DNA of 64,000 bases, taken from the human T2T-CHM13v2.0 reference genome, Homo sapiens. Positions 19,956-62,269 of this stretch are shown in pieces. A program made the translations under genes and the position numbers. Under the pieces are notes generated by a model, which had not been told where the DNA came from, did no database searches, and saw only the letters and a list, made by a program, of their open reading frames with translations. The stretch lies in NCBI RefSeq assembly GCF_009914755.1, contig NC_060929.1, one strand, 5' to 3'. Positions within the stretch are counted from its first letter, which is position 1; each line of letters begins with the position of its first letter.

Positions 19956-20366
19956 TTATTTTTTTCTTATTTTTTTTGTTTTTTCTTTTCTTTTATTTTA
20001 TTGTTATTATACTTTAAGTTTTAGGGTACATGTGCACAATGTGCAGGTTAGTTACATATGTATACATGTGTCATGCTGGTGTGCTGCACCCATTAACTCA
20101 TCATTTAGCATTAGGCATATCTCCTAAAGCTATCCATCCCCCCTCCCCCAACCCGACAACAGTCCCTAGACTGTGATGTTCCTCTTCCTGTGTCTATGTG
20201 TTCTCATTGTTCAATTCCCACCTATGAGTGAGAACATGCAGTGTTTGGTTTTTTGTTCTTGTGATAGTTTACTGAGAATGATGATTTCCAGTTTCATCCA
20301 TGTCCCTACAAAGGACATGAACACATCATTTTTTATGGCTGTATAGTATTCCATGGTGTATATGTG

Positions 20367-22001
20367 CTACATTTTCTTAATCCAGTCTATCATTGTTGGA
20401 CATTTGGGTTGGTTCCAAGTCTTTGCTATTGTGAATAGTGCTGCAATAAACATACGTGTGCATGTATCTTTATAGCAGCATGATTTATACTCCTTTGGGT
20501 ATATACTCAATAATGGGATGGCTGGGTCAAATGGTATTTCTAGTTCTAGATCCCTGAGGAATTGCCACACTGACTTCCACAAGGGTTGAACTAGTTTACA
20601 GTCCTGCCAACAGTGTAAAAGTGTTCCTATTTCTCCACATCCTCTCCAGCACCTGTTGTTTCCTGACTTTTTAATGATTGTCATTGTAACCGGTGTGAGA
20701 TGGTATCTCATTGTGGTTTTGATTTGCATTTCTCTGATGGCCAGTGATGGTGAGCATTTTTTCACGTGTTTTTTGGCTGCATAAACGTCTTCTTTTGAGA
20801 AGTGTCTGTTCATATCCTTCACCCACTTTTTGATGGGCTTGTTTGTTTTTTTCTTGTAAATTTGTTTAAGTTCATTGTAGATTCTGTATATTAGCCCTTT
20901 GTCAGATGAGTAGGTTGAAAAAATTTTCTCCCATTTTGTAGGTTGCCTGTTCACTCTGATGGTAGTTTCTTTTGCTGTGCAGAAGCTCTTTAGTTTAATT
21001 AGATCCCATTTGTCAATTTTGTCTTTTGTTGCCATTGCTTTTGGTGTTTTAGATATGAAGTCCTTGCCCATGCCTATGTCCTGAATGGTAATGCCTAGGT
21101 TTTCTTCTAGGGTTTTTATGGTTTTAGGTCTAACGTTTAAGTCTTTAATCCATCTTGAATTAACTTTTGTATAAGGTGTAAGGAAGGGATCCAGTTTCAG
21201 CTTTCTACATATGGCTAGCCAGTTTTCCCAGCACCATTTATTAAATAGGGAATCCTTTCCCCATTGCTTGTTTTTCTCAGGTTTGTCAAAGATCAGATAG
21301 TTGTAGGTATGCGGCGTTATTTCTGAGGGCTGTGTTCTGTTCCATTGATCTATATCTCTGTTTTGGTACCAGTACCATGCTGTTTTGGTTACTGTAGCCT
21401 TGTAGTATAGTTTGAAGTCAGGTAGCATGATGCCTCCAGCTTTGTTCTTTTGGCTCGGGATTGACTTGGAGATGCGGGCTCTGTTTTGGTTCCATATGAA
21501 CTTTAAAGTAATTTTTTCCAATTCTGTGAAGAAAGTCATTGGTAGCTTGATGGGGATGGCATTTAATCTATAAATTACCTTGGGCGGTATGGCCATTTTC
21601 ATTTTTTTGATTCTTCCTACCCATGAGCATGGAATGTTCTTCCATTTGTTTGTATCCTCTTTTGTTTCATTGAGCTGTGGTTTGTAGTTCTCCTTGAAGA
21701 GGTAGTTCACGTCCCTTGTAGGTTGGATTCCTAGGTATTTTATTCTCTTTGAAGCAATTGTGAATGGGAGTTCACTCATGATTTGGCTCTCTGTTTGTCT
21801 GTTATTGGTGTATAAGATTGCTTGTGATTTTTGCACATTGATTTTGAATCCTGAGACTTTGCTGCAGTTGCTTATCAGCTTAAGGAGATTTTGGGCTGAG
21901 ATGATGGGGTTTTCTAGATATACAATCATGTCATCTGCATACAGGGACAATTTGACTTCCTCTTTTCCTAATTGAATACCTTTTATTTCCTTCTCCTGCA
22001 T
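20367..22001 (-). pseudogene. L1 ORF2p C-terminal fragment (RT palm YADD, thumb, CCHC region)
   Basis: 544-aa ORF with [10 protein letters not shown] and [15 protein letters not shown]; upstream ORF2 disrupted. Confidence 0.92.
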
Positions 22002-59100: not shown

Positions 59101-62100
59101 TCAAAGCAGTGTGTAGAGGGAAATTTATAGCACTAAATGCCCACAAGAGAAAGAAGGAAAGATCTAAAATTGACACCCTAACATCACAATTAAAAGAACT
59201 AGAGAAGCAAGAGCAAACACATTCAAAAGCTAGCAGACGGCAAGAAATAACTAAGGTCAGAGCAGATCAGAAGGAAATAGAGACACAAGAAACCCTTCAA
59301 AAAATCAATGAATCTAGGAGCTGGTTTTTTGAAAGGTTCAACAAAATTGATAGACTGCTAGAAAGACTAATAAAGAAGAAAAGAGAGAAGAATCAAATAG
59401 ATGCAATAAAAAATGACAAAGGGGATATCACCATCAATCCCATAGAAGTACAAACTACCATCAGAGAATACTATAAACACCTCTACACAAATAAACTAGA
59501 AAATCTAGAAGAAATGGATAAATTCCTCGACACATACACCCTCCCAAGACTAAACCAGGAAGAAATTTAATCTCTGAATAGACCAATAACAAGCTCTGAA
59601 ATTGAGGCAATAATTAATAGCTTACCAACCAAAAAAAGTCCAGGACCAGATGGATTCACAGCCGAATTCTACCAGAGGTACAAGGAGGAGCTGTTACCAT
59701 TCCTTCTGAAACTATTCCAATCAATAGAAAAAGAGGGAATCCTCCCTAACTCATTTTATGAGGCCAGCATCATCCTGATACCAAAGCCTGGCAGAGACAC
59801 AACAAAAAAAAAGAGAATTTTAGACCAATATCCTTGATGAACATTGATGCGAAAATCCTCAATAAAATACTGGCAAACCAAATCCAGCAACACATCAAAA
59901 AGCTTATCGACCATGATCAAGTGGGCTTCATCCCTGGGATGCAAGGCTGGTTCAATATACGAAAATCAATAAATATAATCCAGCATATAAACAGAACCAA
60001 AGACAAAAACCACATGATTATCTCAATAGATGCAGAAAAGGCCTTTGACAAAATTTAAAACCCTTCATGCTAAAAACTCTCAATAAATTAGGTATTGATG
60101 GGATGTATCTCAAAATAATAAGAGCTATCTATGACAAACCCACAGCCAATGTCATACTGAATGGACAAAAACTGGAAGCATTCCCTTTGAAAACTGGCAC
60201 AAGACAGGGTTGCCCTCTCTCACTACTCCTATTCAACATAGTGTTGGCAGTTCTGGCCAGGGCAATTAGGCAGGAGAAGGAAATAAAGTGTATTCAATTA
60301 GGAAAAGAGGAAGTCAAATTGTCCCTGTTTGCAGATGACATGATTGTGTATCTAGAAAACCCCAATGTCTCAGCCCAAAATCTCCTTAAGCTGAGAAGCA
60401 ACTTCAGCAAAGTCTCAGGATACAAAATCAATGTGCAAAAATCACAAGCATTCTTATACACCAATAACAGACAAACAGAGAGCCAAATCATGAGTGAATT
60501 CCCACTCATAATTGCTTCAAAGAGAATAAAATGCCTAGGAATCCAACTTACAAGGGATGTGAAGGACCTCTTCAAGGAGAACTACAAACCACTGCTCAAT
60601 GAAATAAAAGAGGATACAAACAAATAGGAGAACATTCCATGCTCATGGGTAGGAAGAATCAATATGGTGGAAATGGCCATACTGCCCAAGGTAATTTATA
60701 GATTCAATGCCATCCCCATCAAGCTACCCATGACTTTCTTCACAGAATTGGAAAAAACTACTTTAAATTTCATATGCAACCAAAAAAGAGCCCACATTGC
60801 CAAGTCAATCCTAAGCCAAAAGAACAAAGCTGGAGGCATCATGCTACCTGACTTCAAACTATACTACAAGGCTACAGTAACCAAAACAGCATGGTACTGG
60901 TACCAAAACAGAGATATAGACCAATGGAACACAACAGAGCACTCAGAAATAATGCCACATATCTACAACTATCTGATTTTTGACAAACCTGAGAAAAACA
61001 AGAAATGGGGAAAGGATTCCCTATTTAATAAATGGTGCTGGGAAAACTGGCTAGCCATATGTAGAAAGCTGAAACTGGATCCCTTCCTTACACCTTATAC
61101 AAAAATTAATTCAAGGTGGATTAAAGACTTACATGTTAGACCTAAAACCATAAAAACCCTAGAAGAAAACCTAGGCAATACCATTCAGGCATGGGCAAGG
61201 ACTTCATGTCTAAAACACCAAAAGCAATGGCAACAAAAGCCAAAATTGACAAATGGGATCTAATTAAACTAAAGAGCTTCTGCACAGCAAAAGAAACCAC
61301 CATTGGAGTGAAGAGGCAACCCACAGAATGGGAGAAAATTTTTTCAACCTACTCATCTGACAAAGGGCTAATATCCAGAATCTACAATGAACTCAAACAA
61401 ATTTACAAGAAGAAAACAAACAACCCCATCAAAAAGTGGGCAAAGGATATGAACAGACACTTCTCAAAAGAAGACATTTATGCAGCCAACAGACACATGA
61501 AAAAATGCTCGTCATCACTGGCCATCAGAGAAATGCAAATCAAAACCACAATGAGATACCATCTCACACCAGTTAGAATGGCGATCATTAAAAAATCAGG
61601 AAACAACAGGTGCTGGAGAGGATGTGGAGAAATAGGAACACTTTTACACTGTTGGTGGGACTGTAAACTAGTTCAACCATTGTGGAAGTCAGTGTGGCGA
61701 TTCTTCGGGGATCTAGAACTAGAAATACCATTTGACCCAGCCATCCCATTACTGGGTATATACCCAAAGGAGTATAAATCATGCTGCTGTAAAGACACAT
61801 GCACACGTATGTTTATTGCAGCACTATTCACAATAGCAAAGACTTGGAACCAACCCAAATGTCCAACAATGATAGACTGGATTAAGAAAATGTGGCACAT
61901 ATACGCCATGGAATACTATGCCGCCATAAAAAATGATGAGTTCATGTCCTTTGTTGGGACATGGATGAAGCTGGAAACCATCTTTCTCAGCAAACTATCG
62001 CAAGGACAAAGCAGCAAACACCGCATGTTCCCACTCATAGGTGAGAATTGAACAATGAGAACACATGGACACGTGAAGGGGAACATCACACACTGGGGAC

Positions 62101-62269
62101 TGTTGTGGGGTGGGGGAGAGGGGAGGGATTGCATTAGGAGATATACCTAATGCTAAATGACGAGTTAATGGGTGGAGCACACCAACATGGCACAGGTATA
62201 CATATGTAAGAAACCTGCACGTTGTGCACATGTACCCTAAAACTTAAAGTATAATAATAATAAAAAAAG
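56118..62269 (+). mobile_element. Full-length L1PA4-like LINE-1, both ORFs disrupted
   Basis: ggggtggagccaagatgg start; 5'UTR retains the 129-bp segment; ORF1/ORF2 fragments; short TSD core taaaatat (56110-56117, 62270-62277). Confidence 0.95.

What the first reader, a model, noticed from the sequence alone, without database searches (positions are those of the whole stretch)
19957..62269. Three L1s of different subfamilies share a mosaic of non-consensus variants: local non-allelic gene conversion
Seen, versus recalled L1PA consensus. L1 at 20-26k and L1 at 36-42k share [13 protein letters not shown] (consensus DI/HM; ~20765/20786 and ~36878/36899), TPVTM (consensus VRM), ORF1 ISEREIK (consensus SEGE; ~24223 and ~40358) and ORF0 GAPPTA. 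L1 at 20-26k and L1 at 56-62k share a 1-bp frameshifting deletion gacat-ta (~23478 and ~58770), KIFSTYSS and YPKEYK. L1 at 36-42k and L1 at 56-62k share IKCIQLG and KGKLIRL. Their UTR diagnostics nevertheless place them in different subfamilies, and a shared frameshift cannot come from a functional source element. Inference: repeated ectopic conversion among neighbours in both direct and inverted orientation.
Basis: partly seen in the sequence, partly recalled or inferred. Interest (0 to 1): 0.7.

Follow-up and report, generated by a model that had tools for sequence, protein, structure and literature searches.

The report
Neighbouring L1 copies swap short patches
Three broken LINE-1 retrotransposon copies of different ages lie within 42 kb on human chromosome 5 and share rare mutations, most likely because short patches were copied between neighbours during DNA repair, a process already described for Alu repeats and seen here between other L1 neighbours across the genome too.

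Summary
All eight peptide motifs and the shared 1-bp deletion are present. Copies A (20-26k), B (36-42k) and C (56-62k) fall in three age groups and are no more alike overall than unlinked copies. Most A=C sharing is old-subfamily ancestry.

A and B share 9 rare alleles, against at most 3 in 124 unlinked pairs. The KEDV..HV double allele has 4 carriers among 11,453 genomic matches, two being A and B. Subfamily markers suggest transfer in both directions.

A-C (inverted) is moderately supported: the deletion has 5 exact carriers genome-wide and lies among C-type alleles in A. B-C is within chance, and YPKEYK is not rare.

Outside the window, carriers of the same rare allele lie within 50 kb of each other 6.6 times more often than controls (18 pairs, 8 inverted, p 8e-7). 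A non-duplicated chr2 pair shares 12 further alleles (1.4 expected).

Verdict: likely short-tract non-allelic gene conversion between neighbouring L1s. It is known for Alu and from single L1 cases; I found no systematic L1 study in 9 searches. Reads and ape orthologues were not tested.

The parts
19957..26112 (-). Copy A: full-length, disabled L1, middle age group (L1PA4-like by inference); keeps the 129-bp 5'UTR piece; no target-site duplication found
36098..42127 (-). Copy B: full-length, disabled L1, youngest group; lacks the ~129-bp 5'UTR piece (short L1PA3 or L1PA2 type); exact 15-bp target-site duplication
56119..62275 (+). Copy C: full-length, disabled L1, oldest group (L1PA5/6-like by inference); degenerate 14-bp target-site duplication (2 mismatches)
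24207..24359 (-). 153-bp run identical in A and B (B 40342-40494). Holds the rare G>C at 24223/40358 and, in B, the older-group allele at 40461: likely A-to-B tract
   Evidence: T in 6 of 6 middle-group and 3 of 25 young copies
40342..40494 (-). B side of the likely A-to-B tract
21165..21374 (-). 210-bp run identical in A and B (B 37276-37485). Holds G>C at 21332 and, in A, the young-group allele at 21307: likely B-to-A tract
   Evidence: C in 0 of 10 older and 13 of 28 young copies
20751..20813 (-). 63-bp run identical in A and B (B 36864-36926) with two linked A>G changes at 20786 and 20765 (KEDV..HV)
   Evidence: 4 of 11453 genome-wide, including A and B
36864..36926 (-). B side of the KEDV..HV patch
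20686..25698 (-). Further single rare alleles shared by A and B, at A 25698, 24395, 22605, 21511, 20686 (B 41696, 40530, 38717, 37622, 36799)
   Evidence: 22605 and 21511 not counted genome-wide
23440..23631 (-). Stretch of A with the shared 1-bp deletion (23478) and oldest-group alleles at 23631, 23524 and 23440: likely an old C-to-A tract (C 58617-58808)
   Evidence: those alleles in 4 of 4 oldest, 1-2 of 6 middle, 0 of 27-28 young copies
58617..58808 (+). C side of the likely C-to-A tract, deletion at 58770
20918..20918 (-). Rare G>T shared by A and C (C 61344; KIFSTYSS)
   Evidence: 12 exact carriers genome-wide
38092..40495 (-). Two alleles shared by B and C (B 38092/C 60289; B 40495/C 57885); not beyond chance

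Best explanation
Three independently inserted, disabled L1 copies of different ages share rare mutations in short scattered patches, most likely because breaks in one copy were repeatedly repaired from a nearby copy without crossover (non-allelic gene conversion). Shown: different age groups, excess rare-allele sharing for A-B, small patches bounded by kept subfamily markers, and the same neighbour excess elsewhere in the genome in both orientations. Inferred: the repair mechanism; tracts of tens to a few hundred bases; both directions between A and B; C to A for the deletion; roughly 5-10% of each copy overwritten (about 8 shared against about 120 private alleles); A-B exchange after B inserted, in the great-ape line.
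For: A-B: 9 shared rare alleles against 0-3 in 124 unlinked middle-young pairs. Strict counts: 6 against 0.91 expected with 29 reference copies, and 4 against 0.52 after adding copies found through B or through a shared allele. Double allele 4 of 11453; ISERE 13 of 6271. Direction markers lie inside two identical runs. Copies sit in three tree groups; B and C keep their own target-site duplications; no long switch of subfamily markers, so no crossover. Outside the window, 489 carriers of 10 alleles give 18 same-allele pairs at 1-50 kb against 11 cross-allele pairs (6.6-fold, p 8e-7; 8 of 18 inverted); with G>C alleles and duplication-prone regions dropped, 11 against 6 (5.3-fold, p 8e-4). The chr2 pair L043/L044 (16 kb) aligns only over the L1 (93.7%) and shares 12 further exclusive alleles against 1.4 expected.
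Against: Overall identity among A, B and C is not raised. Switching at subfamily markers is no higher than in unlinked copies. The 210-bp run is the longest for A against 28 young copies but not exceptional among 168 other pairs (up to 259). A-C substitutions (2 against 1.05 expected) and B-C are within chance by count. The identical run round TPVTM is only 9 bp and round the deletion 17 bp. The TPVTM G>C allele clusters even at 0.5-2 Mb, which points to regional mutation bias, and 3 of the 9 A-B alleles are G>C. KGKLIRL and CACG carriers show little neighbour excess on their own. Reference sets for the older groups are small (5-6 and 4 copies). Of the 18 outside pairs only the chr2 pair was checked for duplication. 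No unselected neighbour pairs were aligned.
Confidence: 0.85

Rival explanations
1. Recurrent mutation helped by a regionally shared mutation rate or spectrum: neighbours hit the same mutable sites independently.
For: The TPVTM G>C allele clusters at 50 kb-2 Mb. Several alleles occur in 1-2% of copies. The deletion recurs in 3 unrelated copies. A and B have longer end branches than their group mates. This probably explains B-C and some single A-B alleles.
Against: Expected counts already use each copy's own rate. The excess under 50 kb remains without G>C alleles and is gone at 0.5-2 Mb. It does not explain the double allele (4 of 11453) or the swapped subfamily markers beside shared alleles.
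Confidence: 0.07
2. Shared descent: the alleles mark minor source lineages or recombinant source elements.
For: Unlinked pairs within one group do share many alleles (L006/L007 12, L011/L012 7). Most A=C alleles are older-group ancestry. The older groups are thinly sampled, which also bears on the chr2 pair.
Against: A and B lie in different groups, separated by a 100/100 branch. The alleles do not travel together: among 489 outside carriers only 6 elements carry two of the 10 alleles. Descent does not predict physical clustering.
Confidence: 0.03
3. Assembly or polishing cross-talk between neighbouring repeats.
For: A-B and the chr2 pair are both 16 kb apart, about a long-read length (recalled). 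No reads or second assembly were available.
Against: Copies are 5-7% diverged. Shared alleles sit within 5 bp of private differences. Transfer runs both ways. Outside pairs are 20-48 kb apart and often inverted.
Confidence: 0.02
4. Conversion through an RNA or cDNA intermediate made locally, rather than DNA-to-DNA repair.
For: LINC02108 starts in B's 5'UTR and ends in A's 5'UTR (hub annotation; splice sites seen). cDNA-mediated conversion is described for yeast Ty and Tf2 (PMC6598467, sections read).
Against: Transfer is also A to B and C to A, from older broken copies. A diffusible cDNA would not obviously be limited to about 50 kb.
Confidence: 0.03

Closest known systems
Non-allelic gene conversion among neighbouring Alu elements (Aleshin and Zhi 2010; original not seen, described in PMC8230782, passages, and PMC6598467, first two of four parts read)
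   Same: Neighbours share non-diagnostic mutations, falling with distance; mosaic of subfamily markers; transfer from old to young and young to old.
   Different: Here 6-kb L1s. The excess is still clear at 25-50 kb (10 pairs against 1.5 expected), whereas the Alu range is given as about 10 kb. Inverted pairs are as common as direct ones.
Single local conversions between L1PA3 copies and beside an inversion at L1PA7 copies in NA12878 (PMC5829575, passages)
   Same: Local L1-to-L1 conversion in human DNA.
   Different: Those are single recent events seen in reads. Here there are many small, probably old patches between different subfamilies, with no inversion or deletion.
L1-L1 homology-mediated structural variants up to 62.9 kb (PMC12350158, passages)
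   Same: L1PA pairs recombine ectopically over the same tens-of-kb range.
   Different: Those are crossovers that delete DNA; this would be the non-crossover outcome.
LTR conversion on the human Y (Trombetta 2016, as described in PMC6598467; original not seen)
   Same: Clusters of derived alleles copied between repeat copies.
   Different: Different element class, shown from population polymorphism; here an autosome and one assembly.

Membership tests
Non-allelic gene conversion between neighbouring transposable elements | Copies are independent insertions, not a duplication | tested here: met
   Similarity limited to the L1 bodies; three tree groups; own target-site duplications for B and C, none found for A
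Non-allelic gene conversion between neighbouring transposable elements | Excess of shared non-diagnostic rare alleles over unlinked pairs (A-B) | tested here: met
   9 against at most 3 in 124 pairs
Non-allelic gene conversion between neighbouring transposable elements | Same excess for the inverted pairs A-C and B-C | tested here: inconclusive
   Counts within the unlinked range; A-C supported only by rarity and flanking markers
Non-allelic gene conversion between neighbouring transposable elements | Sharing falls with distance | tested here: met
   5.3-fold under 50 kb, 1.8-fold at 50-500 kb (p 0.056), 1.0 at 0.5-2 Mb with G>C alleles and duplication-prone regions dropped
Non-allelic gene conversion between neighbouring transposable elements | Linked alleles moved as a tract with a donor and an acceptor | tested here: met
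   Double allele in a 63-bp run; swapped subfamily marker plus rare allele in the 153- and 210-bp runs. Each direction rests on one marker.
Non-allelic gene conversion between neighbouring transposable elements | Non-reciprocal transfer without crossover | tested here: inconclusive
   No long marker switch and no swapped flanks; non-reciprocity itself needs the ancestral state
Non-allelic gene conversion between neighbouring transposable elements | Acceptor shows its earlier state in an outgroup species or another haplotype | not testable with these tools
   No ape genome, second human assembly or reads held
L1PA3-short or younger (copy B) | 129-bp 5'UTR deletion | tested here: met
   Gap in B against A and C; deletion described in 10.1101/429613, passages
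Named L1PA4, L1PA5 or L1PA6 subfamily (copies A, C) | Match to the subfamily consensus | not testable with these tools
   No repeat library held; only relative age from the tree

The most novel reading that the evidence does not exclude
Short-tract conversion between neighbouring L1s of different subfamilies is a genome-wide process that reaches 50 kb or more, several times the range given for Alu. It works on inverted as well as direct pairs at 93-95% identity and overwrites some 5-10% of each neighbour, moving even frameshifts between dead copies. It would make the roughly 6000 long L1PA copies a readout of the reach of ectopic repair in the germ line, and it has not been measured for L1 in the papers I could search.
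Probability: 0.45. Interest if true: 0.65.

Novelty: new member of a known kind. Interest (0 to 1): 0.45.

Why it matters
The locus itself has no shown function. If the pattern is general, L1 copies do not age independently. Dating by divergence, L1 trees and mutation-rate estimates from L1 remnants would carry a small bias that depends on neighbours. Regulatory or coding variants could move between copies after they stop transposing. The distance curve would also give a simple measure of how far ectopic repair searches in the germ line, on the scale at which L1 pairs cause deletions.

Tried and rejected
Tandem or segmental duplication of the three copies: rejected. An inversion between A and C or a crossover chimera: no swapped flanks, no long marker switch. 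Raised overall identity: not seen. Excess switching at 43, 70 and 111 subfamily markers: not seen. Longest identical run as a test: not decisive. Sharing with the old L1 at 4-5256: none beyond unlinked copies. Megabase-range conversion: the apparent 1.7-2.2-fold excess at 0.5-2 Mb comes mainly from one G>C allele and vanishes when G>C alleles are dropped, so it is not claimed. YPKEYK, KGKLIRL and IKCIQLG as evidence: too common. Rows left out: L001, L032, L033 (the window itself); D, L031, L034, L035 from the pair counts; L040, L043, L044 because they were found through B or a shared allele; copies under 5.3 kb and L028 from the tree. Three carrier lists are cut at 100 rows. Unselected neighbour pairs were not aligned, which leaves the size of the effect in a typical pair open. 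Nine paper searches were answered; none listed a systematic study of conversion among neighbouring L1s, but most subscription papers are not held and Aleshin and Zhi 2010 was not read. 10.64898/2026.05.14.725010 (passages) names gene conversion once, in passing; its supplements were not seen and may list recombinant L1s.
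Full report
Anatomy. The window holds three full-length L1s: A 19957-26112 (-), B about 36098-42127 (-) and C 56119-62275 (+), plus an older, roughly 81% identical L1 at 4-5256. All three have broken ORF2 frames. BLAST identities are A/B 94.6, B/C 93.7 and A/C 92.6%. These are no higher than to unlinked copies. Similarity stops at the L1 ends. B has an exact 15-bp target-site duplication and C a 14-bp one with 2 mismatches; none was found for A, and no 5' flank matches another copy's 3' flank beyond A-rich sequence. 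In a tree of 30 copies, B is in the young group, A in a middle group and C in the oldest. B lacks the ~129-bp 5'UTR piece that A and C keep, a deletion fixed in L1PA3 and later (10.1101/429613, passages). The names L1PA4-like for A and L1PA5/6-like for C are my inference; no consensus library was available.

Observation.

What is ordinary. Against 29 unlinked copies, most A=C alleles are also in the older references L002, L003, L019 and L020 and are subfamily ancestry; several others are CpG decay. YPKEYK is in 3 of 29 references and in the old L1. IKCIQLG has 90 exact carriers of 5683 matches within one mismatch and KGKLIRL at least 100 of 6212. B-C shares 3 rare alleles, one in the poly-A end, where 124 unlinked pairs reach 5. 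B-C is therefore unproven.

A-B. With CpG decay left out, A and B share 6 alleles absent from all 29 references, against 0.91 expected (p 3.5e-4). After adding 9 copies, three of them found through B or a shared allele, 4 stay exclusive against 0.52. Counting alleles with at most two other carriers, A-B has 9 and 124 unlinked middle-young pairs have 0-3. Genome-wide, ISERE has 13 carriers of 6271, 24395 C>T 60 of 6055, GAPPTA 27 of 2929, TPVTM at least 100 of 12485. The two linked changes of KEDV..HV occur together in 4 of 11453, two being A and B. Sites 22605, 21511 and 21332 were not counted genome-wide. Two identical runs give direction. In 24207-24359, B carries the older allele at 40461 (6 of 6 middle, 3 of 25 young copies), which suggests A to B. 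In 21165-21374, A carries the young allele at 21307 (0 of 10 older, 13 of 28 young), which suggests B to A. Each rests on one marker. Markers kept by both copies bound the patches to 150-850 bp, and one edge lies 15-23 bp from a shared allele in some cases. Marker switching overall is not above background, so only a small part of each copy has been exchanged.

A-C. By count it is within chance (2 substitutions against 1.05). By rarity it is suggestive. The deletion has 5 exact carriers: A, C and three unrelated copies, one young and two about 88% identical. KIFSTYSS has 12. Around the deletion A carries oldest-group alleles at 23631, 23524 and 23440, found in 4 of 4 oldest, 1-2 of 6 middle and none of 27-28 young copies. 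Private changes in both copies inside this stretch mean any transfer is old. A C-to-A tract of about 190 bp is likely, not shown.

Test outside the window. I took the 489 listed carriers of 10 alleles outside the window (three lists cut at 100 rows) and compared same-allele with cross-allele pairs, scaled on pairs 2-50 Mb apart. At 1-50 kb there are 18 same-allele against 11 cross-allele pairs (6.6-fold, p 8e-7), 10 direct and 8 inverted. Dropping duplication-prone regions and both G>C alleles leaves 11 against 6 (5.3-fold, p 8e-4), 1.8-fold at 50-500 kb (p 0.056) and 1.0 at 0.5-2 Mb (first pass). The longer-range excess comes mainly from the TPVTM G>C allele and is likely regional mutation bias (regional C>G clusters are recalled, not checked). 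Not every allele shows the effect: KGKLIRL and CACG have 1 close pair each against 0.55 and 0.84 expected. One outside pair was read: L043/L044 on chr2, 16 kb apart, align only over the L1 at 93.7%, sit on different branches and share 12 further exclusive alleles against 1.4 expected (p 3.6e-8). Thin sampling of older groups may inflate that count. The other 17 pairs were not checked for duplication; three are under 3 kb apart.

Mechanism. Most likely a break or nick in one L1 is repaired from the nearest homologous L1 without crossover, copying tens to a few hundred bases (established model of non-allelic conversion; inferred here). Repeated over the great-ape line this gives a fine mosaic, roughly 5-10% of each copy by my rough estimate. 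Independent recurrence explains B-C and perhaps single A-B sites, but not the double allele, the direction markers or the decay with distance. Shared descent explains most A=C sites but not clustering; only 6 outside elements carry two of the 10 alleles. An assembly artefact is unlikely but untested.

What is known. Conversion among neighbouring Alus within about 10 kb is described (PMC8230782, passages; PMC6598467, two of four parts; the original paper not seen). Single L1-L1 conversions are reported (PMC5829575, passages), and L1 pairs cause deletions up to 62.9 kb (PMC12350158, passages). Nine searches listed no systematic study for L1, within a library that lacks most subscription papers.

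Verdict. A real case of a known process, firm for A-B, moderate for A-C and not shown for B-C. The added value is the genome-wide neighbour signal for L1 at 25-50 kb and in inverted pairs. Interest 0.45.

Noticed in passing
window 42031-42088 and 25407-26227 (-): LINC02108 starts inside B's 5'UTR, uses a GT donor about 97 bases from B's 5' end (a known L1 donor by recall), passes an Alu-like exon (30974-31210) and ends about 700 bases inside A's 5'UTR. The GAPPTA site of A lies in its last exon, so the cDNA could check that allele.
   Followed up: partly
G000:C5:58796109 and 58799835 (-), about 560 kb before copy A: One L1 carries two of the A-B shared alleles (TPVTM G>C and 24395 C>T); another TPVTM carrier lies at C5:59111896. 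A possible longer-range partner; not read.
   Followed up: no
L043/L044 (G000:C2:209.26-209.29 Mb): Independent neighbouring L1 pair with 13 shared rare alleles, a stronger case than the window's.
   Followed up: yes
G000 carriers of the TPVTM G>C allele: Cluster at 50 kb-2 Mb (16 against 2.7 and 23 against 7.9 expected, duplication-prone regions dropped), for example chr6:87 Mb, chr9:131-133 Mb and chr4:128-129 Mb; likely a regional C>G mutation bias.
   Followed up: partly
L017 and L023 (G000:C2:182.70 and 182.51 Mb): Two reference copies 190 kb apart share 2 exclusive alleles (0.21 expected) and the 21332 G>C allele.
   Followed up: no
copies A, B, L043, L044: End branches are longer than those of unlinked group mates (A 0.035 against 0.021-0.027; B 0.018 against 0.007-0.013). 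Conversion or local mutation may raise divergence; the references were best hits, which biases them short.
   Followed up: no
window 46868-48103: GC-rich 37-bp tandem array, 32.5 copies, that looks like an SVA VNTR (recalled), next to the annotated enhancer 46270-46797.
   Followed up: no
window 4-5256 (+): Older L1, about 81% identical to A-C, with an internal 107-bp tandem duplication at 2393-2606; no excess sharing with A, B or C.
   Followed up: partly
window about 23036 (copy A): A has a private 20-bp deletion in ORF2.
   Followed up: no
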